A stretch of 20,000 bases of DNA, taken from an uncultured virus (IMG/VR IMGVR_UViG_3300030104_006454). Lineage: Duplodnaviria > Heunggongvirae > Uroviricota > Caudoviricetes > Crassvirales. This document shows positions 5,087 to 20,000 of this stretch, in pieces; within the stretch, counting starts at the first letter, position 1, and each line of letters begins with the position of its first letter. Position numbers and translations under genes: made by a program. The notes under the pieces were generated by a model. It worked only from the letters and a program-made list of their open reading frames with translations, did no database searches and was not told the origin of the DNA. The stretch covers positions 45,947 through 65,946 of IMG/VR virus record IMGVR_UViG_3300030104_006454; one strand, written 5' to 3'.

Positions 5087-5358
5087 TACTTTGATCTACC
5101 TTCTGCAAAGCCTTTAAAAACTTTAACTTCTGTTTTGTTTTCTTTACCTTCTAATATGTTTTCTTCTTCTTGTATACGGTTGAGAATTTCAAATGCATCA
5201 AATATAGCTAGCTTTTTAGTAGCCGCAGCATTTTTAAGTCTGTCAGCTGATATATCATCATCACTATCAACTATAGGTTCTTTAGCAACTTTAATTAACT
5301 CATCAACTGCTTTGTGCCCAGCCTGGATTATACTCTTCTTCGTTTCCTTGATATTCAT
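5086..5358 (-). CDS. Probable terminase small subunit (start re-assigned to MNIKETKK)
   Basis: Small helical protein whose stop abuts the terL ATG (TAATG). ATG at 5358 preferred over 5406 because of its AT-rich leader and shorter overlap with the upstream gene. Confidence 0.55.
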   Translation of the reverse strand: MNIKETKKSIIQAGHKAVDELIKVAKEPIVDSDDDISADRLKNAAATKKLAIFDAFEILNRIQEEENILEGKENKTEVKVFKGFAEGRSK

Positions 5359-5917
5359 ATTTAATTGTAATAAATTTTGATAGTAGTCTATATAATTTTT
5401 GTCCATCTACAATAAACTCATATTCTGAACTTGGTCTAAATCCTATTAAGTCACCTTCATTAACCGTACCGTCTGTGTACTTAACAACACCCATCAAAGG
5501 CTGTTCTTTATCAGTATTTAATTTATTTATAGATTTTATTGGTGTTACAAAACAATAACCTTTCATTGCCTGCCACTTTCTACTGTGATAACTAAATATA
5601 GCTTTTGGTTTATGTAAAAATATTTGATCTGGCTGCACTAAATAACTATCTTCATCAATATAAGCTCTACTGTTTTTTTCTATACCGTATTGGTTGTGCC
5701 ATCTTCTAAAAACATTATGATGTACAATTACAGTATCACCAACTTTTATTTCTGTTTCACCTACAGTTGGTATTGCTTTTACTATAGCTTCTCTGCTAAC
5801 GTATTGATGATTAAATATTTCAGTATTAACTATAAGTTCTTTGCCGTCTATTTTTTTTGTATTGTTGTATCTTGATTTTACAGGCGTTACAACAAAGTTG
5901 TAAACCGCTTTCATCAA
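5303..5917 (-). CDS. GroES-like protein with apparently two tandem co-chaperonin-type domains
   Basis: N-half KAVYNFVVTP...AIVKAIP...IKVGDTVIVHH and C-half QAMKGYCFVTP...MGVVKY...VNEGDLIGF...EFIVDGQKLYRL each resemble the GroES beta-barrel pattern. Confidence 0.6.
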   Translation of the reverse strand: MMKAVYNFVVTPVKSRYNNTKKIDGKELIVNTEIFNHQYVSREAIVKAIPTVGETEIKVGDTVIVHHNVFRRWHNQYGIEKNSRAYIDEDSYLVQPDQIFLHKPKAIFSYHSRKWQAMKGYCFVTPIKSINKLNTDKEQPLMGVVKYTDGTVNEGDLIGFRPSSEYEFIVDGQKLYRLLSKFITIKYEYQGNEEEYNPGWAQSS

Positions 5918-10999: not shown

Positions 11000-11260
11000 T
11001 TAGGCATCAATTAATACCACATCGCCTGAGCGAATAACGTGGTATAATGTTTCTTTGTACTGAACTCCGTGTCCAGCATGTTTATCATAATAAACAACAT
11101 CTTTGTCGCTTATTCCTTCTACAAGGTTACCAGTTGATATTACGTTAGCCTTTATATACCTATTGTCCGCATCAACGTCTTCAGTTAATATAAGTCCACC
11201 AACTTTCTTTGGCCCTTGTTTTATTTTTTGTACTATTATATAATTATTGACTGCTTGCAT
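11000..11260 (-). CDS. groES: Co-chaperonin GroES (phage-encoded)
   Basis: 86 aa, mobile-loop KVGGLIL, VISTG, DVVYY, VIRSGDVV; overlaps the groEL 3' end. Confidence 0.85.
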   Translation of the reverse strand: MQAVNNYIIVQKIKQGPKKVGGLILTEDVDADNRYIKANVISTGNLVEGISDKDVVYYDKHAGHGVQYKETLYHVIRSGDVVLIDA

Positions 11261-12812
11261 CGCCTCTCATGTTTGAAATTATACAATCAGCGGATATAAT
11301 AGTAGTTACAACACTTACCGCATTTTTAAGTGCTGACTTAGTAACAAGTACTGGATCTATAATACCGTGTTTAATCATTTCATATGTATTTCCATTTGTT
11401 ACATCTATTCCCTTACCGTTTGTAGGTTCTACCGCTTCAATTATACCAGCATTATCTAATATAGTTTGGTAAGGTGCTTTTATAGCATTAAGTAGTATTT
11501 CTTCACCCCATCCATTTGGCTTTATTTCTTGAGCAGCATTTAACAGTGCAATACCACCGCCTGGCACTATGCCTTCTTTTAAAGCAGCTTTAGTAGCATA
11601 TATTGCATCTTCAACTCTGTCTTTCTTTTCTTTAAGCTCTACCTTAGACGCTGCACCTACACGCACCATACCTACTTTACCTGACAACATTGCAAGACGA
11701 TCTTGTATTTTTTTCTTTAAAAACGGGTTTTTTTCGTTTTTTATAGCTTTTTTAACATTTTCTATGCGTTCTGTAAGATCTTCGCTAATGTCTATAGTAG
11801 TAATTACAGTATTTTTGTCATTTGTAACAGCTTTATCAGCTTTTCCAAGGCAATCAACAGTAATTAAGTCCATATCATCACCTAATTCTTCATTTATTAC
11901 CGTAGCTCCGGTTAAAAATGCTAAATCTTGAACTGTATCTTGCTTAGTTGGGCCAAAACCTGGTAGATCTACAATGTTTACCTTAATATTACCCTTAACT
12001 TTGTTCATCATAAGGGCTGATTTTAGTTGAGTATCAACATGTGCAACAATAAGTAACTCTTTTTTGTTCTTTATAACATGTTCTAGTATCGGTTGTATTT
12101 TACGTATGTTAGGTATTTCACTACCTACAATCAAAACTAGCGGTTCTTCAAGTACACACTCGTGTTTATCAGTATCTGTAACAAAATGTGGTGATGTTAA
12201 ACCACAGTCAAACTGCACACCGTCAACAATATCAACGTAAGTTTCTTCAGTTCCAGAACCTTCCATGAAAACTACACCATCTTTACCTACTTTATTGTAT
12301 GCATCAGCAATAATCATGCCTAAAGTTCGATCATTATTGCAGCTTATACTGCTAATGTCCTCAAGCATGCTGCCTTCAACGTCTATAGCTATATTTGTAA
12401 GGTATGTATTTACTTTTTCAAGTGCTGAGCTTATACCTTGTTTAATAAATCTAGTAGAAAGTTCTGCATACTGCTCTTTTTGTACTTCTTTTATCAGTGC
12501 TTCAGCAAGGACAGTAGCTGTAGTAGTACCGTCACCTGCTTCTTTCACTGTGTTTTTAGCAGCTTCTTTAATAAGTGTAGCGCCGAGGTTTTCAACCGGG
12601 TCATATAAGACTACGGATTCTGCTACCGTTACACCATCTTTTGTTATGACCGGGTTGCCTCTAGCATCTTCGTATATTACACACTTACCAGATGCTCCTA
12701 GAGTAGACTTCACTGCTTTTGCTAATTTGTCTACACCCGTAATTATTTTACTTTTAGCTTTTTCACCAAAGTTTAGCTCTTTGATAAGTTCGCTGGGTTG
12801 GTTATATTCCAT
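11244..12812 (-). CDS. groEL: Chaperonin GroEL (phage-encoded)
   Basis: VITKDGVTVA, AGDGTTTATVLA, PGFG, EKKDRVEDA, EGIVPGGG, GIIDP motifs; no GGM tail. Confidence 0.95.
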   Translation of the reverse strand: MEYNQPSELIKELNFGEKAKSKIITGVDKLAKAVKSTLGASGKCVIYEDARGNPVITKDGVTVAESVVLYDPVENLGATLIKEAAKNTVKEAGDGTTTATVLAEALIKEVQKEQYAELSTRFIKQGISSALEKVNTYLTNIAIDVEGSMLEDISSISCNNDRTLGMIIADAYNKVGKDGVVFMEGSGTEETYVDIVDGVQFDCGLTSPHFVTDTDKHECVLEEPLVLIVGSEIPNIRKIQPILEHVIKNKKELLIVAHVDTQLKSALMMNKVKGNIKVNIVDLPGFGPTKQDTVQDLAFLTGATVINEELGDDMDLITVDCLGKADKAVTNDKNTVITTIDISEDLTERIENVKKAIKNEKNPFLKKKIQDRLAMLSGKVGMVRVGAASKVELKEKKDRVEDAIYATKAALKEGIVPGGGIALLNAAQEIKPNGWGEEILLNAIKAPYQTILDNAGIIEAVEPTNGKGIDVTNGNTYEMIKHGIIDPVLVTKSALKNAVSVVTTIISADCIISNMRGDASSQ

Positions 12813-14583: not shown

Positions 14584-14865
14584 AATCTTATTATTACATA
14601 GTTAATAGCAAATTTAAAATGTGGACAATAGGGTGTTACTAGATAACTATAATAGGCTAATGTCCTAAAAAAATGACATTACAAATATTGGGGTGTAGTG
14701 TTGCCCCACTATACTCGTTTTTGTTTTGTAAAATAAAAGTCAAATTGTTAAAGCGGGCCCCCCTCGTTGTTTTGCGTTTATACGATTTTTTTTTACATTT
14801 TATATTTTATTTTTTTTTTACTAAATATTTCGCATTTTATTTTTTACATATTATATTTACATTTT
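14584..14865. other. Divergent intergenic control region / strand switch
   Basis: Gene orientation flips here. Contains inverted repeat TAATGTC-N10-GACATTA (14658-14681), GC patches (14690-14714, 14754-14767) and a T-rich tract. Confidence 0.7.
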
Positions 14866-14899
14866 TACAAACTAAATACGACTACATATGGATAATATA
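14866..14899 (+). promoter_or_regulatory. Conserved bipartite motif copy 1 (putative early promoter)
   Basis: TACAAACTAAATACGA-ctacatat-GGATAATATA. Confidence 0.75.
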
Positions 14900-14992
14900 A
14901 TTGTAAAAAGAAATTAATAAAATGAATTACACTAACACACTTCGCGCAATACATACACACTAAAAATAATAACTAAATAATAATATTACTTT

Positions 14993-15026
14993 TACAATGT
15001 AAATACGAGACAATGTGGATAATATA
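14993..15026 (+). promoter_or_regulatory. Motif copy 2
   Basis: TACAATGTAAATACGA-gacaatgt-GGATAATATA. Confidence 0.75.
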
Positions 15027-15063
15027 AATACAAAAACAAAGTTAAACTAAATAAATAAAAATT

Positions 15064-15400: not shown

Positions 15401-15592
15401 ATGAATAAAGTAAAACAACATATAAATAACGCAAAGCGTTTTAGACAAGAAAACTATAAACCACTAATTGAGTACATCAATTGGAGTGAAATCACTAAAG
15501 ATTATAACTTAAAAACAGGCGATTTAAACTACACTGATTACAACAAATTAGAATTAATATTAGATAATTTTGTTAAAAGTAATACAAAATAA
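15401..15592 (+). CDS. Hypothetical early protein
   Basis: 63 aa; stop codon lies within motif copy 3. Confidence 0.7.
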   Translation: MNKVKQHINNAKRFRQENYKPLIEYINWSEITKDYNLKTGDLNYTDYNKLELILDNFVKSNTK

Positions 15593-15616
15593 ACACGAAC
15601 ACTAATGGATAATATA
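15583..15616 (+). promoter_or_regulatory. Motif copy 3
   Basis: TACAAAATAAACACGA-acactaat-GGATAATATA. Confidence 0.75.
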
Positions 15617-15629
15617 ATAAATTAAACAA

Positions 15630-15782
15630 ATGATATACGAGCACGAAATAACTTTTAACGATCACTCAATACAATACTTAACTTCAACAACTAATTATCT
15701 AAATGACGAAGATAAAGAGTTTCTCGAAGCGCTCGATGTCGACTTGTCAACAATTAAATTAATAAATACTTATAAATTATGA
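15630..15782 (+). CDS. Small acidic hypothetical protein (50 aa)
   Basis: Not in track. MIYEHEITFNDHSIQYLTSTTNYLNDEDKEFLEALDVDLSTIKLINTYKL; starts 13 nt after motif copy 3. Confidence 0.65.
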   Translation: MIYEHEITFNDHSIQYLTSTTNYLNDEDKEFLEALDVDLSTIKLINTYKL

Positions 15783-15904: not shown

Positions 15905-15989
15905 AGTAGCAAAAATACTACTAGATATAGTAGCAATAGGATGGTTAGTATTTGTAATTGTAGCAATAGTAACAATAATTACAAACTAA
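15897..15989 (+). CDS. Single-pass membrane micropeptide (30 aa)
   Basis: MHKVAKILLDIVAIGWLVFVIVAIVTIITN; stop lies within motif copy 4. Confidence 0.55.
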   Translation: MHKVAKILLDIVAIGWLVFVIVAIVTIITN

Positions 15990-16013
15990 ATACGAATTAA
16001 GTCGGATAATATA
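15980..16013 (+). promoter_or_regulatory. Motif copy 4
   Basis: TACAAACTAAATACGA-attaagtc-GGATAATATA. Confidence 0.75.
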
Positions 16014-16020
16014 TATAAAT

Positions 16021-16212
16021 ATGAATATGAAAACAAACATAAACACTTTAAACTACAACGAAAAAACTAAAACACTAATTTTAAACAAAATAAAATACAA
16101 AGGCTATGAAATTTGCGAACTACCTGCAAACTTTGGTTGTATTGAATTTAACGAAAAACCAGGAATTAGTGAATGGATTAACTACAAAGGTCTAACATTT
16201 ATACAAGAATAA
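16021..16212 (+). CDS. Hypothetical early protein
   Basis: 63 aa directly behind motif copy 4. Confidence 0.7.
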   Translation: MNMKTNINTLNYNEKTKTLILNKIKYKGYEICELPANFGCIEFNEKPGISEWINYKGLTFIQE

Positions 16213-17198: not shown

Positions 17199-17394
17199 TA
17201 GACTAAAAACAATGAACTGTATAACAGTGTTAGATTTTGAAGTGGGAAAAGTGTTTCAATACAATATAGGTAAAGATCACTTATGCTGGAACCCTGAATA
17301 TGAGAGATGTGAGCAATTCTTAACAGGTGAAGGACACAATTTAAGTAACATAAACTGGATGGTACATAGTAATGAGGAAATAATTACAAATTAA
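17188..17394 (+). CDS. Hypothetical protein
   Basis: 68 aa; stop lies within motif copy 5. Confidence 0.7.
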   Translation: MKNNRLKTMNCITVLDFEVGKVFQYNIGKDHLCWNPEYERCEQFLTGEGHNLSNINWMVHSNEEIITN

Positions 17395-17418
17395 ATACGA
17401 TTGCTATTGGATAATATA
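17385..17418 (+). promoter_or_regulatory. Motif copy 5
   Basis: TACAAATTAAATACGA-ttgctatt-GGATAATATA. Confidence 0.75.
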
Positions 17419-17433
17419 TACAAATAACGATAT

Positions 17434-17643
17434 ATGATTTGTAAATGTAAAAATATAATACCACCTGGCAGAGTTAAACTTGGCTTTAGTACGTGTGTAA
17501 ACTGTTCAACAGTAGAAGCATATGGTTGCGCACCACTAATAAACCACAAAACCGGCAATTCTATTCAGATAATGTCAAGCAGTGACGCTGCTCGTATTGC
17601 CAAGTTAACTCGACGCAGGGGTTATGGAACAATGTTGGCTTAA
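17434..17643 (+). CDS. C4 zinc-finger protein, TraR/DksA-finger-like
   Basis: CKC...IPPGRVKLGFSTCVNCS resembles the C-x-IP-x2-R-x-CV-x-C pattern of DksA/TraR fingers; basic C-terminus (TRRRGYG). Confidence 0.6.
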   Translation: MICKCKNIIPPGRVKLGFSTCVNCSTVEAYGCAPLINHKTGNSIQIMSSSDAARIAKLTRRRGYGTMLA

Positions 17644-17657
17644 CTTTGTTTTCAAAA

Positions 17658-17909
17658 CGTGTGGAAGAACAAAGATCAGGTTAATTCTTGAGCCACACGG
17701 ACATGTAGAGGCTTGGGTGGTTGCGCGTAAGGCGAGTAGAGACAGTATCTAAGAACAGTTACAGCTTGAAATAATAGTGTACGACTGAGACGACAGTATC
17801 TCATCTTACTTACATGGCAGAACGGCAGGATAAAGCAAAATGTTCGTAAGTCTGTAAGTTCTTTATGAGTACGCAGAACAAGAACCACGCCTGCCCTCCC
17901 TCTTCATGT
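17658..17909 (+). ncRNA. Candidate structured non-coding RNA of unknown class
   Basis: GC-enriched intergenic stretch with at least 10 mutually compatible helices and a 6-bp pseudoknot pairing (see findings). Confidence 0.7.
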
Positions 17910-17943
17910 TACAAACTAAATACGATAATAGAAGGATAATATA
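17910..17943 (+). promoter_or_regulatory. Motif copy 6
   Basis: TACAAACTAAATACGA-taatagaa-GGATAATATA. Confidence 0.75.
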
Positions 17944-17958
17944 ATAAAATTAAATCAA

Positions 17959-18237
17959 ATGAAATTAACAAGTAAAAAAGTAAAACAATATATGGCGTGG
18001 AGAACTGATGAAGAGCTCACGCATTGCCCTAATGCTATTGCTGCGGCTTGCAATGATATGTACGAAGAGTACAGGCATAATGAGTTTCTTAAAATAACAG
18101 CAAAAGATTTTATGAAGCTATTATTCTTTAACGACCCAATAGTCGGTATGAATACACATAGCTATGGCTTTCACACAGCACAGGGTAGGCACATTATTAA
18201 CACTTTACAAAATAAATATTATGAGTACAAAAACTAA
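17959..18237 (+). CDS. Hypothetical protein
   Basis: 92 aa behind motif copy 6. Confidence 0.75.
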   Translation: MKLTSKKVKQYMAWRTDEELTHCPNAIAAACNDMYEEYRHNEFLKITAKDFMKLLFFNDPIVGMNTHSYGFHTAQGRHIINTLQNKYYEYKN

Positions 18238-18662: not shown

Positions 18663-19047
18663 ATCAGCAATAAGATTTGCTACACGTAAAGAAGGTGTAT
18701 CGTTCAACGAACTACCTGAAAATATAAACGCACAGTTCTATGCGCACTGGGACGGTTACCCATCACACAGAGGTGTAGAAATAGCTGAATCATTACTTCA
18801 TGGTCACAAGATTGAAGGCTGGGAAGTAGAAGATTTAGAACACAGGCATACTGACCTTGAGTTTATATACTATGTGTGGCAAGTAAAAGGCAAAGAAACT
18901 TGGATTAGTATATTTGAGCGCAGTGACTACAGCGAAGAGTCTTGGCATCTAGATTATGATGAAAAAGATGCTTTCAAATGTATATTTGTAGGTAAACCTA
19001 CAGATTTAATAGATAAATACAAACTAAATACGAACGAAGAAGGATAA
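18652..19047 (+). CDS. Conserved phage hypothetical protein (YxHxDGYP type)
   Basis: MATRS...FYAHWDGYP...EFIYYV; stop lies within motif copy 7. Confidence 0.75.
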   Translation: MATRSAIRFATRKEGVSFNELPENINAQFYAHWDGYPSHRGVEIAESLLHGHKIEGWEVEDLEHRHTDLEFIYYVWQVKGKETWISIFERSDYSEESWHLDYDEKDAFKCIFVGKPTDLIDKYKLNTNEEG

Positions 19048-19051
19048 TATA
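19018..19051 (+). promoter_or_regulatory. Motif copy 7
   Basis: TACAAACTAAATACGA-acgaagaa-GGATAATATA. Confidence 0.75.
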
Positions 19052-19054
19052 TAT

Positions 19055-19333
19055 ATGACTGATGAATTTTTAGACAAACTAGCTGACAAATTGTTAGACA
19101 AACTGTTAGAAAAATGTTCACAACCTGAATGGCATGTGCGAAGATCAGATGACTTTGTTAATAACTTATCAGGCATAATAGCTTTTAAAGAAAATGAAGA
19201 AGAACGTATGCTCGGTGAAATGTCTAAACTAATGACACTCATGGTAATGTACGAAGAAAAAGGTGATCAAGACAAAGCTAACTTAATGCAAGAAAAAGTA
19301 GACGAGATAAATAAAAAATTAAATAACAGATGA
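19055..19333 (+). CDS. Helical hypothetical protein
   Basis: 92 aa, ATGA-coupled to the ligase gene. Confidence 0.75.
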   Translation: MTDEFLDKLADKLLDKLLEKCSQPEWHVRRSDDFVNNLSGIIAFKENEEERMLGEMSKLMTLMVMYEEKGDQDKANLMQEKVDEINKKLNNR

Positions 19334-20000
19334 TGAGAAAAAAACCAATGCTAGCATACCCTGTTAGCGATAAACCAATAAACTATACTAAGCCTACGTT
19401 TATACAACCAAAGCTTGACGGCGTGAGATGTCTTATACAATACGAAGGCAGCGAAGCTAGTGGCTACGAAAGCGTTGTAGCATACTCACGTACAGGTAAA
19501 GTATGGCAAAACATTAATCACATACTAGCGTCGCTAATACCTTTTTTCAAAAAATACCCAGATGTAATACTCGATGGCGAGTTGTATAATCACAAATTTA
19601 AAGACGACTTTGAGTCTATAATATCTATGGTCAGAAAAACAAAACCAACAGACGAGGACAGATCTATATCACGTAAGAACGTACAGTTTCATTGTTACGA
19701 TATAGTTGATGAGACTATGCCATTTGAACAGCGTAATAAGTTTATTCTGTCTGCAGTATACAACAACTACGACTATGTACGTGTACTACCTTGTCAACAA
19801 GTTACTAGCGACGACAACGCTAAAAAAATACACAAACTAAACCTCGATGCAGGTTTCGAAGGCTCTATTGTACGTACTAATGATACGTATCAATGTAAGC
19901 GTTCACATAATCTACGTAAATTCAAAGACTTCAGCGATGCCGAAGCTACGATCGTAGGTTATCTAGATGGTAAAGGCAAAAGGACTGGCACGCTTGGCAA
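19330..20000 (+). CDS. lig: ATP-dependent DNA ligase (partial, runs off window)
   Basis: Not in track. MMRKKPMLA...QPKLDGVR (motif I), YSRTGK, ILDGELY (III), FHCYDI (IIIa), FEGSIVR (IV), LRKFKDF (V). Confidence 0.93.
   Translation, partial: MMRKKPMLAYPVSDKPINYTKPTFIQPKLDGVRCLIQYEGSEASGYESVVAYSRTGKVWQNINHILASLIPFFKKYPDVILDGELYNHKFKDDFESIISMVRKTKPTDEDRSISRKNVQFHCYDIVDETMPFEQRNKFILSAVYNNYDYVRVLPCQQVTSDDNAKKIHKLNLDAGFEGSIVRTNDTYQCKRSHNLRKFKDFSDAEATIVGYLDGKGKRTGTLG

What the first reader, a model, noticed from the sequence alone, without database searches (positions are those of the whole stretch)
17658..17909. Unannotated ~250-nt multi-helix, pseudoknotted RNA candidate with twin GACAGUA loops
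Seen in sequence: a 5' hairpin (CGTGTGG 17658-64/CCACACG 17693-99; AAGAA 17665-69/TTCTT 17685-89), then a nested domain: ACATG 17701-05/CATGT 17905-09; AGAGG 17707-11/CCTCT 17899-903; GTGGTT 17717-22/AACCAC 17883-88; GCGTA 17725-29/TACGC 17870-74; AGAAC 17752-56/GTTCT 17858-62; TTACAG 17759-64/CTGTAA 17852-57; ACTTAC 17808-13/GTAAGT 17846-51; GAAC 17820-23/GTTC 17842-45. The innermost loop GGCAGG (17824-29) is the exact complement of CCTGCC (17890-95) in the outer internal loop, giving a long-range pseudoknot. Two separate hairpins display the same loop: TAGA-gacagta-TCTA (17737-51) and TGAGA-cgacagta-TCTCA (17786-803). The region is GC-rich in an AT-rich genome and ends one base before motif copy 6. 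I do not recognise it as tRNA, tmRNA, RNase P, 6S, an intron or a small ribozyme. Inference: a possibly novel phage ncRNA, such as a ribozyme, a protein sponge or an anti-defence decoy, with the repeated loops as binding sites.
Basis: partly seen in the sequence, partly recalled or inferred. Interest (0 to 1): 0.9.

Follow-up and report, generated by a model that had tools for sequence, protein, structure and literature searches.

The report
New pseudoknot RNA in marine phages
The flagged gap between two early phage genes holds one copy of a conserved, pseudoknotted small RNA that matches no described RNA family, occurs in many uncultured marine phages, and has no known function yet.

Summary
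Only part of the proposed fold is conserved.

**Conserved core.** From 92 distinct copies in phage and marine metagenome contigs I derive a core of about 60 nt:
- a closing stem P1 that covaries strongly;
- an invariant helix P2 (GUGGU/ACCAC);
- a crossing helix P3 (GGCAGG/CCUGCC) that covaries at two pairs;
- invariant joining strands (AAC, AUAAAGC).

**Variable parts.** Two loops carry interchangeable hairpin modules. The window's copy has a 102-nt and a 48-nt insert. The twin GACAGUA hairpins sit in the first insert and are rare.

**Where it is and is not found.**
- No Rfam 15 family matches.
- No match in 50,697 deposited phage records.
- No true copy turned up in two pattern scans of 185,579 prokaryote genomes.
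- There is one copy in this phage, which is related to Flavobacterium and Cellulophaga podophages.

**Context.** The RNA follows a stop codon. In other phages it directly precedes a promoter-like motif, a U tract, a tRNA or a tRNA-like element.

**Reading.** This is a real, undescribed phage RNA class (about 0.9). Its mechanism is unproven. I favour a discrete RNA with paired ends whose invariant pseudoknot binds a partner (0.4). The main rivals are a conditional terminator and a ribozyme.

The parts
17658..17699 (+). 5' hairpin module (CGUGUGG...CCACACG closing stem around GGAAGAACAAAGAUC...). It lies outside P1 in this phage.
   Evidence: Sequence read. The same module (GGAAGNACAAAGAUC) sits inside insert 1 in 4 relatives and inside insert 2 in 2 relatives of 92, with different closing pairs (GCGG/CCGC, GUGG/CCAC, AAGG/CCUU).
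17701..17711 (+). P1, 5' strand (ACAUG-U-AGAGG).
   Evidence: Pairs with 17899-17909. A closing helix of 5-9 bp is present in 38 of 38 instances, with 22 different strand pairs. 5 of 6 P1 pairs show changes on both sides.
17715..17722 (+). P2, 5' strand: GGGUGGUU, of which GUGGUU pairs.
   Evidence: GUGGU is invariant. The collecting patterns demanded it (GGTGGT or GGTAGT, GTGGT); the five model-found type-2 copies were not selected for it and carry it too. It is complementary to ACCAC at 17884-88. There is no covariation (5 of 6 pairs never vary).
17723..17823 (+). Insert 1 (about 100 nt). Base helices GC/GC and GUAAG/CUUAC enclose an internal loop and three hairpins, two of which carry GACAGUA loops (17737-51 and 17786-803). 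It ends in the conserved AAC (17821-23).
   Evidence: RNAalifold on 14 relatives gives GUGAG/CUCAC, with the window's GUAAG/CUUAC as a compensatory change, and a covarying closing helix of the variable part. Insert 1 is 3-6 nt long in 24 of 92 copies and 20-142 nt in 68.
17824..17829 (+). P3, 5' strand (GGCAGG).
   Evidence: Pairs with CCUGCC at 17890-95. Variants AGUAGG/CCUACU, UGUAGG/CCUAC(G/A) and AGCAGG/CCUGCU keep the pairing. 2 of 6 pairs change on both sides.
17830..17836 (+). Invariant joining strand AUAAAGC.
   Evidence: AUAAAG is identical in all copies, but the collecting patterns demanded it. AUAAAGC stands in 37 of 38 first-set copies (L055 reads AUAAAGU). The five model-found type-2 copies were not selected for it and carry it.
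17837..17882 (+). Insert 2 / P4: a local hairpin, GUUCGUA 17842-48 with UAC-GCA-GAAC 17870-79.
   Evidence: L219 has the same hairpin type next to a 5-nt insert 1. 79 of 89 inserts of 20 nt or more fold as one closed domain.
17883..17895 (+). P2 3' strand AACCAC, one purine (G 17889), then P3 3' strand CCUGCC.
   Evidence: The purine is A in 86 and G in 6 of 92 copies.
17899..17909 (+). P1, 3' strand (CCUCU-UC-AUGU).
   Evidence: It is followed directly by the promoter-like motif copy at 17904-17958.

Best explanation
The gap holds one member of an undescribed family of small structured RNAs of marine phages that appear, from their relatives, to infect Flavobacteriia.

**Shown.**
- The conserved heart is about 60 nt. 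A closing stem P1 brings the two ends together.
- Inside it lie an invariant helix P2 (GUGGU with ACCAC) and a helix P3 (GGCAGG with CCUGCC). They cross each other as a pseudoknot.
- The two helices are linked by invariant single strands (AAC, AUAAAGC and one purine).
- Two loops accept interchangeable hairpin modules. This phage's copy carries a 102-nt module group (with the twin GACAGUA hairpins) and a 48-nt hairpin, plus an extra hairpin 5' of P1.
- The RNA lies on the gene strand, just after a stop codon, at the end of a one-gene early unit.

**Inferred.**
- It is made as the 3' part of that transcript, or in other phages from its own promoter, and persists as a discrete RNA with paired ends.
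- In most relatives P1 plus a U tract also ends transcription.
- The invariant pseudoknot is a binding surface for a conserved partner, either a host or phage protein or a small ligand. The swappable hairpins are accessory.
For: **Family and structure.**
- 73 related loci were fetched through the upstream 69-aa gene. Conserved blocks were seen.
- There are 38 and then 92 distinct copies.
- P1 forms in 38 of 38 copies, with 22 different strand pairs.
- On a 26-sequence alignment, 97.4% of cells pair against 91.2% in shuffles (0 of 500 shuffles reach it). The covariation score is 0.165 against 0.066 (0 of 500). Slid controls pair at 37-50%.
- P3 variants keep the pairing.

**Strand.** All 30 model hits in loci oriented by the 69-aa gene lie on the gene strand.

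**Context.**
- 36 of 92 copies start just behind one conserved gene end (..TGGTAYRARTAA, which I read as codons ending in a stop); in the copies I read by eye the gap is 0-8 nt.
- 55 of 92 copies have U4 after P1.
- L093 and L082 have a host-type promoter-like sequence directly upstream of a minimal copy.
- Three phage groups that carry the RNA share no neighbouring protein within 3 kb. This points to an RNA that works independently of any adjacent gene.

**Sequence constraint beyond pairing.** GUGGU, AUAAAG and ACCAC are identical in all 92 copies, but the collecting patterns demanded them. The five model-found type-2 copies were not selected for them and carry them too.

**Distribution.**
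- There is one copy in this 65.9-kb phage.
- No true copy was found in 185,579 prokaryote genomes by two patterns.
- Short contigs from RNA libraries hold relatives of the core. This is weak evidence, because DNA can be present in such libraries.
Against: - No partner is identified and no experiment exists.
- P2 never varies, so the data neither support nor refute its pairing.
- In 12 of 92 copies (the GUCAGG type) the two outer P3 pairs are not standard, which leaves only 4 bp.
- With a single nucleotide between P2 and P3 on the 3' strand, the two helices cannot stack end to end in the usual way. The 3D arrangement is therefore unclear (inference).
- Minimum-energy folding is no better than shuffles for the window and for 7 of 8 shorter relatives. 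The program cannot score pseudoknots.
- The window's own copy has no U tract.
- The alignment used for the pair counts was fitted to P1 and P3.
Confidence: 0.4

Rival explanations
1. Conditional terminator (riboswitch-like). The pseudoknot core is an aptamer embedded in the terminator stem P1. A ligand or factor that stabilises the core closes P1 and stops transcription before the next unit. Without it the polymerase reads through.
For: - The core is invariant, the closing stem varies, and optional hairpins are tolerated, as in aptamers.
- P1 is followed by U4 in 55 of 92 copies.
- In L093 and L082 the order is promoter-like sequence, RNA, 50-nt spacer, ORF.
- Register-shifted alternative pairings of GGUG with CRCC, and of GGG with CCC, compete with P2 and P3 (folds).
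Against: - Downstream genes differ among phage groups.
- The next gene usually has its own promoter-like motif.
- 27 of 92 copies, including the window, have no U tract.
- No alternative structure competing with P1 itself was found.
Confidence: 0.2
2. Self-cleaving ribozyme or other RNA-processing element. It separates the upstream mRNA from what follows, for instance a tRNA or tRNA-like RNA, and helps to mature it.
For: - The form is that of a small pseudoknotted core closed by P1, with many fixed nucleotides and two optional stems. That this is the general form of small self-cleaving ribozymes is recalled, not tested.
- 10 of 92 copies are followed within 6 nt by a tRNA (5 copies) or a tRNA-like element (5 copies).
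- L207 has a tRNA 3' end (T arm and acceptor strand, read by eye) about 8 nt upstream of the RNA; ARAGORN calls no tRNA at that place.
Against: - No Rfam ribozyme model matches, even at E up to 10, on the window or on minimal copies.
- The helix order does not fit HDV-like ribozymes.
- No conserved nucleotide lies outside P1 where an end-cleaving ribozyme would cut.
- Most copies, the window's included, are not next to a tRNA.
Confidence: 0.15
3. A decorated intrinsic terminator or selfish RNA cassette. The phages' usual terminator stem (ACGAGG...CCUCGUUUU) has acquired ornate loop inserts that spread by recombination and have no further role.
For: - Plain hairpins with the same stem and U tract follow the RNA in 11 of 92 loci.
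- Modules move between positions and phages.
- The RNA sits behind different genes.
Against: - GUGGU, AUAAAGC and ACCAC are the same in copies with quite different P1 stems and unrelated neighbouring genes: the L093 and L082 type, the L157 type and type 2. A loop without function would drift. Part of this identity was imposed by the search patterns.
- P3 is kept by compensatory changes.
Confidence: 0.1
4. One reading: a single ~250-nt nested multi-helix domain in which insert 1 pairs with insert 2 over about 26 bp, and the twin GACAGUA loops are the functional binding sites.
For: All the segments are complementary in the window. Part of this fold appears in the minimum-energy structure.
Against: - L328 has the window's insert 1 (one substitution) with an unrelated insert 2. 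L219 has the window-type insert 2 with a 5-nt insert 1.
- L055 and L064 have the conserved end of insert 1 but an insert 2 of only 5-6 nt.
- GACAGTATC occurs in the inserts of 3 of 92 copies.
- z = -0.37.
Confidence: 0.05
5. A DNA-level element, for example a single-strand initiation signal or origin, or a recombination site. The stems would form in single-stranded DNA.
For: In the L198 and L199 phages the element lies in a replication module, between a small SSB-like gene and genes with DnaA-type and winged HTH domains. AT-rich DNA follows it.
Against: - It lies on the strand of the neighbouring genes wherever this was checked: 30 of 30 hits in loci oriented by the 69-aa gene, and in the ORF lists of 8 further loci.
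- It has promoter-like sequences upstream and U tracts or tRNAs downstream.
- G-U pairs are accepted in P1 and P3. In DNA these would be G-T mismatches.
Confidence: 0.05

Closest known systems
Small pseudoknot aptamers of riboswitches, and the 'terminator-embedded aptamer' idea of the HMP-PP (thiS) riboswitch (recalled from the literature, not read here)
   Same: A compact pseudoknot with invariant joining strands, a variable closing stem, and a tolerated embedded hairpin. In most copies the closing stem is followed by a U tract, so the conserved core sits inside a terminator-like stem.
   Different: No Rfam riboswitch model matches. There is no constant downstream gene family. It is found only in phage contigs. 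No ligand is known.
Small self-cleaving ribozymes (twister, pistol, hatchet, hammerhead, HDV-like including the phage 'theta' ribozymes next to tRNAs; recalled)
   Same: Similar size, a closing stem P1, crossing helices, optional peripheral stems, and occurrence in phage genomes, sometimes directly beside tRNAs.
   Different: No model matches at E up to 10. The helix order is P1-P2-P3-P2'-P3'-P1' with 1 nt between P2' and P3', which fits neither HDV-like nor twister topology as I recall them. Cleavage is untested.
Orphan stable RNAs of phage tRNA regions (T4 RNAs C and D; ROOL and GOLLD, which often lie near tRNAs in phages or prophages; abstract of 10.1101/2024.12.08.627333 seen in a search listing, the rest recalled)
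   Same: Phage-borne, of unknown function, linked to tRNA genes in part of the copies, and ornate with variable decoration.
   Different: Much smaller core. No Rfam match to ROOL or GOLLD. Different host range (marine Flavobacteriia-type phages).
Candidate structured RNAs of IMG/VR (Fremin et al. 2023, PMC10690425; passages read)
   Same: The same data source and the same kind of object: 8,495 unnamed covariation-supported candidates, 29-151 nt long.
   Different: I could not establish whether this motif is among them. Six supplementary files held no match to three core strings, and three files, two of them too large to unpack, could not be searched.

Membership tests
Any Rfam 15 family (4,227 models) | A match to the family covariance model at its gathering score | tested here: not met
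   0 matches in the whole window. At E up to 10 there were only 4 chance snoRNA or lncRNA hits, best E 0.92. On five short relatives none of 4 weak hits lay on the motif itself.
tRNA / tmRNA | Cloverleaf, or a tRNA-like domain with a tag reading frame, as found by ARAGORN | tested here: not met
   0 genes in the window. In relatives the tRNAs lie beside the element, not within it.
Twister / pistol / hatchet / hammerhead ribozymes | Match to the family model | tested here: not met
   No hit at E up to 10.
Twister / pistol / hatchet / hammerhead ribozymes | Self-cleavage | not testable with these tools
   Cleavage needs a bench assay on an in vitro transcript.
HDV-like ribozymes | Nested double pseudoknot with helix order P1, P2, P3 hairpin, P1', P4 hairpin, P2', and a catalytic C in the strand before P2' (definition recalled) | tested here: not met
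   The order here is P1, P2, (insert), P3, (insert), P2', one purine, P3', P1'. There is no room for a P4 or a joining strand between P2' and P3'. No Rfam hit.
T-box leader | Stem I with specifier loop, plus an antiterminator whose bulge pairs with the tRNA NCCA end (recalled) | tested here: not met
   No Rfam T-box hit. Only a short likeness exists: P2 contains UGGU paired to ACCA. That is a lead from memory, not a test.
Intrinsic terminator | A G+C-rich stem directly followed by a U tract | tested here: not met
   The window copy has no U tract after P1 (CCUCUUCAUGUUACAAAC). Among 92 copies, 55 have U4, 10 have U3 and 27 have none. The scan for simple terminators does not list it.
H-type pseudoknot | Two helices whose strands interleave, each supported as a pairing | tested here: inconclusive
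   P3 is supported: 2 of 6 pairs change on both sides and 99.4% of cells pair. P2 is fully complementary but never varies.
Riboswitch (generic) | Conserved aptamer in a fixed position upstream of a functionally coherent gene set | tested here: not met
   The neighbouring genes differ among three phage groups.
Riboswitch (generic) | Ligand binding | not testable with these tools
   Binding needs in-line probing or a comparable bench assay with candidate ligands.

The most novel reading that the evidence does not exclude
The core is a new class of catalytic or sensing RNA carried by marine Flavobacteriia phages. It could be a self-cleaving or processing ribozyme. It could also be a sensor that controls read-through, of a small molecule or of a tRNA 3' end, since P2 pairs UGGU with ACCA. 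It would work within an RNA-only gene island that also holds tRNAs, an uncalled tRNA-like element and a second conserved RNA module that can nest inside it.
Probability: 0.3. Interest if true: 0.9.

Novelty: categorically new. Interest (0 to 1): 0.75.

Why it matters
Phage non-coding RNAs with conserved tertiary-type cores are rare, and several known ones turned out to be ribozymes, riboswitches or large RNA assemblies. This one has these features:
- It is abundant in marine samples: 92 distinct copies from only a few capped scans.
- It is restricted to phages.
- It has a very tightly conserved 60-nt pseudoknot.
- It shows an unusual modular exchange of peripheral hairpins between two insertion sites.
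- It is linked in part of the copies to tRNAs and to a tRNA-like element.

It gives a small (58-nt minimal form), directly testable object for RNA biochemistry. It also gives a handle on early gene expression or host takeover in phages of Flavobacteriia, a major group of marine bacteria. If it is only a decorated terminator, it still documents how terminator loops can carry conserved cargo.

Tried and rejected
- **Coding reading.** ORFs 17624-17752 (+, 42 aa) and 17676-17888 (-, 70 aa) overlap the region. They have no PHROG match, and relatives differ by inserts of arbitrary length. Rejected.
- **Known RNA families.** Five Rfam searches gave nothing except tRNAs and one T-arm fragment.
- **Cultured phages.**
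  - blastn of the window region found nothing.
  - blastn of a 107-nt relative gave five 20-23-nt chance hits.
  - Model R2 run on MW202828.1 and on Flavobacterium phage elemoE gave one 18-bit hit, which I take to be chance: it has none of the core blocks, though I did not look up its annotation.
- **Host genomes.** The first pattern gave 0 hits. The second gave 4 hits in MAGs that match only the typed part of the pattern and lack P1 and P2. The one I read looks like coding sequence.
- **Own phage promoter before the RNA.** The conserved upstream sequence reads as the end of a gene (..TGGTAYRARTAA), so I dropped this idea. The host-type promoter reading for L093 and L082 rests on a recalled consensus.
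- **tmRNA reading of the type-2 island.** ARAGORN and Rfam do not support it.
- **RNA-library contigs.**
  - They show relatives of the core and of the upstream gene but cannot show ends, strand or level.
  - Parts without cover mean nothing.
  - Small word shares in runs that I did not lay are no evidence.
- **Supplement search of PMC10690425.** No match in 6 files. Three files could not be searched.
- **Literature string search.** Only unrelated primer hits.
- **Earlier findings of this scan.** Nothing.
- **MAFFT alignment A3.** It split P2 in rows with a short insert 1 and was not used for counts.
Full report
**Setting.**
- The window is the last 20 kb of a 65,946-nt IMG/VR virus record.
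- It encodes a portal, a large terminase, GroES- and GroEL-like proteins and a DNA ligase.
- The terminase finds 87 deposited phages: Flavobacterium 68, Cellulophaga 15, Tenacibaculum 2, Maribacter 1, unnamed 1. The best identity is 63%. The host is therefore most likely a member of the Flavobacteriia. This is an inference.
- The finding lies in a 315-nt gap between a 69-aa ORF (17434-17643) and a 92-aa ORF (17959-18237), both on the + strand.
- The region belongs to a block of small early genes. Each is preceded by a repeated promoter-like motif, of which 7 copies were found.

**Check of the observation.**
- The region has G+C of 0.42-0.45, against about 0.22-0.39 around it.
- It ends at motif copy 6.
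- Thermodynamic folding of 17645-17915 is no better than shuffled sequence: z = -0.37 on the + strand and -1.06 on the - strand.
- ARAGORN finds no tRNA or tmRNA.
- Rfam finds nothing at gathering scores in the whole window, and only four chance hits at E up to 10.
- The two overlapping short ORFs have no PHROG match.

**Relatives.**
- The 69-aa protein brought in 73 related IMG/VR loci.
- blastn and a motif search showed that the middle of the region is variable, but three blocks are nearly identical in some 25 loci: GGGUGGU; AAC-GGCAGG-AUAAAGC; and AACCAC-R-CCUGCC followed by a strand complementary to the sequence before GGGUGGU.
- Further copies came from these sources:
  - a two-block scan of IMG/VR: 12 loci;
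  - a covariance model built from 8 short copies: 38 hits in 82 sources;
  - a matching IMG/VR scan: 39 loci, with 27 model hits in 26 of them.
- After removing duplicates I hold 92 distinct copies: 37 from IMG/VR (the window's own among them) and 55 from metagenomes. They are 58 to 279 nt long, with a median of 150.
- Copies that lacked enough flank to define P1 were dropped before this count.

**Anatomy of the family**.
- The order of elements is: P1 5' strand; 0-6 nt; (G)GGUGGU; insert 1; AAC or AAU; P3 5' strand; AUAAAGC; insert 2; (A)ACCAC; one purine (A in 86 copies, G in 6); P3 3' strand; 0-6 nt; P1 3' strand.
- Insert 1 is 3-6 nt in 24 copies and 20-142 nt in 68 copies.
- Insert 2 is 5-6 nt in 3 copies and 25-107 nt in 89 copies.
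- **P1.**
  - It forms 5-9 bp in 38 of 38 copies of the first set, with 22 different strand pairs.
  - Examples are CGAGGU/ACCUCG, AGAGG/CCUCU in the window, GAGAGU/ACUCUC, AGGUU/AACCU, AAAGG/CCUUU, GAGGCG/CGCCUC, GUGAAC/GUUCAC and AGAGACU/AGUCUCU.
- **P3.**
  - It is GGCAGG/CCUGCC in 64 of 92 copies.
  - The variants AGUAGG/CCUACU, UGUAGG/CCUAC(G or A), AGCAGG/CCUGCU, GGCAGG/CCUGCU or CCUGUC, and GGUAGG/CCUGCC keep the pairing through compensatory or wobble changes.
  - In 12 copies (GUCAGG with CCUGCA, CCUGCG or CCUGCC) the outer two pairs are not standard.
- **P2** (GUGGU/ACCAC) never varies.
- **Formal counts.** On a model-made alignment of 26 copies with a short insert 1:
  - 97.4% of cells pair, against 91.2% in shuffles (0 of 500 shuffles reach it);
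  - 7 pairs change on both sides (1 of 500);
  - the covariation score is 0.165 against 0.066 (0 of 500);
  - sliding the partner columns gives 37-50% pairing;
  - 5 of 6 P1 pairs and 2 of 6 P3 pairs show double changes, and 0 of 6 P2 pairs do.
  - This alignment was fitted to P1 and P3, which favours them.
- P2 and P3 interleave, so the core is a pseudoknot closed by P1.
- Only one nucleotide separates the 3' strands of P2 and P3, so the two helices cannot stack in the classical way. This is an inference.

**What the window's copy looks like.**
- P1: 17701-11 with 17899-909.
- P2: 17717-22 with 17883-88.
- P3: 17824-29 with 17890-95.
- AUAAAGC: 17830-36.
- Insert 1: 17723-17823.
- Insert 2: 17837-82.
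- An additional hairpin (17658-99) lies 5' of P1.

**The inserts are independent modules.**
- RNAalifold on 14 copies with the same type of insert 1 finds a base of GC/GC and GUGAG/CUCAC. The window's GUAAG/CUUAC is a compensatory change. It also finds a strongly covarying helix that closes the variable part.
- 58 of 68 long insert-1 sequences and 79 of 89 long insert-2 sequences fold as single closed domains.
- L328 is identical to the window from P1 through insert 1 (one substitution) and again from P2' to P1', but carries an unrelated insert 2.
- L219 has the window-type insert 2 next to a 5-nt insert 1.
- L055 and L064 keep the conserved end of insert 1 with an insert 2 of 5-6 nt.
- The same hairpin modules occur in insert 1 in some phages and in insert 2 in others:

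| Module | Insert 1 | Insert 2 |
|---|---|---|
| GGAAGNACAAAGAUC (the window's 5' hairpin) | 4 | 2 |
| CCGAAACUCGG | 1 | 16 |
| GAGGUUCUUAGYCCUCC | 1 | 9 |
| GACAGUAUC | 2 | 1 |

**Context.**
- All 30 model hits in loci oriented by the 69-aa gene lie on the gene strand.
- 36 of 92 copies begin just behind one conserved gene end (0-8 nt in the copies I read by eye), and 9 begin after another.
- In the window the RNA follows the 69-aa gene after the extra hairpin.
- After P1, 55 of 92 copies have U4, 10 have U3 and 27 (the window among them) have none.
- What follows P1 varies:
  - the promoter-like motif of the next gene in at least 25 copies;
  - a second plain hairpin with the same stem consensus and a U tract in 11;
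  - a tRNA within 6 nt in 5, of which 4 are tRNA-Asp(GUC), and ARAGORN shows two more such loci, L313 and L247;
  - a tRNA-like element in 5;
  - another conserved RNA-like element in several more.
- L093 and L082 belong to a different phage group, with a replication module containing DnaA-type and winged HTH domains. In these a minimal copy is preceded by a sequence that fits the Bacteroidota promoter consensus as I recall it, and is followed about 50 nt later by an ORF.
- Three phage groups carrying the RNA share no protein within about 3 kb.
- This phage has one copy. L371 has two in tandem.

**Distribution.**
- No match in 50,697 deposited phage records.
- None in two cultured or deposited relatives searched whole with the model.
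- No true copy in one genome for each of 185,579 prokaryote species by two patterns.
- The sequencing-run index lists 20 runs that hold part of the stretch; 18 of them are labelled marine metagenome. The shares of the runs that I did not lay are small or untested.
- Short contigs of four RNA libraries hold relatives of the core and of the upstream gene. This does not prove transcription.

**Interpretation.**
- That this is a real, conserved, structured RNA family I hold at about 0.9.
- What it does is not shown.
- I favour a discrete RNA with paired ends, whose invariant pseudoknot is a binding surface for a conserved partner and whose P1 often doubles as a terminator (0.4). The reasons are:
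  - the sequence constraint exceeds what pairing needs;
  - the element is independent of neighbouring genes;
  - it occurs both as a 3' end element and, apparently, as its own gene;
  - the peripheral hairpins are freely exchanged.
- The rivals are:

| Rival | Confidence |
|---|---|
| Conditional terminator with an embedded aptamer | 0.2 |
| Self-cleaving or processing RNA linked to tRNA maturation | 0.15 |
| Decorated terminator without further role | 0.1 |
| A DNA-level signal | 0.05 |

- P2 pairs UGGU with ACCA, which recalls the pairing of a T-box bulge with a tRNA 3' end. This is a resemblance from memory. Rfam's T-box model does not match, and I treat it only as a lead.

**Novelty.**
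- No Rfam 15 family matches.
- A text search for four core strings in about 8.4 million papers and preprints found only unrelated primers.
- Two keyword searches gave no description of it.
- A 2023 catalogue of 8,495 unnamed IMG/VR candidates (PMC10690425, passages read) may contain it. Its large supplementary files could not be searched.

Noticed in passing
window 14860-14914, 14987-15041, 15577-15631, 15974-16028, 17379-17433, 17904-17958, 19012-19066 (+): There are seven copies of a promoter-like motif (TACAAAcTAAATACGA, 8 nt, GGATAATATA) in front of the small early ORFs. The spacing does not fit a sigma-70 promoter or the Bacteroidota consensus as I recall it. A phage-specific promoter is likely.
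   Followed up: partly
L069 4881-4967; also L049, L017, L052, L060 directly after the RNA, and L371 about 545-600: A tRNA-like element sits here. It has a 7-bp acceptor stem that covaries (CAGCUUG/CAAGCUG, CAGCACG/CGUGCUG, UAACUAG/CUAGUUA), a T arm with GGUUCGAUUCC, a conserved CUGACGAG before the T arm, and a variable central hairpin in place of the D and anticodon arms. ARAGORN does not call it. Rfam sees only the T arm.
   Followed up: partly
L028, L045, L227, L262, L300, L324 just downstream of the RNA; nested at window 17723-17819: A second conserved RNA-like element (GCGCGAGACGUGUA ... AUCUUACUCGC) occurs free-standing next to the core RNA. In 21 of 92 copies a nested form of it makes up the base of insert 1. 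No Rfam match.
   Followed up: partly
L137, L278, L327, L268, L271, 60-250 nt downstream of the RNA: Further G+C-rich, apparently structured non-coding sequence (GUCUCAACAAAGGGCAUACUGGCGAAAGC... and ...AAGUCCGUCGGUGGGUAGUAACCC...) follows the RNA and its terminator. These phages seem to carry a non-coding RNA island. No Rfam match.
   Followed up: partly
L371 73-219 and 331-421: One IMG/VR contig holds two tandem copies of the core RNA, of different subtypes.
   Followed up: partly
window 5303-5917 and 11244-12812 (-): The phage encodes GroES-like and GroEL-like proteins (PHROG E = 1.7e-17 and 3.5e-133).
   Followed up: no
window 19330-19998 (+): The DNA ligase gene runs off the end of the window, which is also the end of the record. 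The record is therefore probably circularly permuted or slightly incomplete, despite the 100% completeness estimate.
   Followed up: no
window 17741-17763 and 17792-17814: There is a local 23-nt direct repeat at 74% identity (GACAGTATCT...ACA). It shows that the two GACAGUA hairpins arose by duplication within insert 1.
   Followed up: partly
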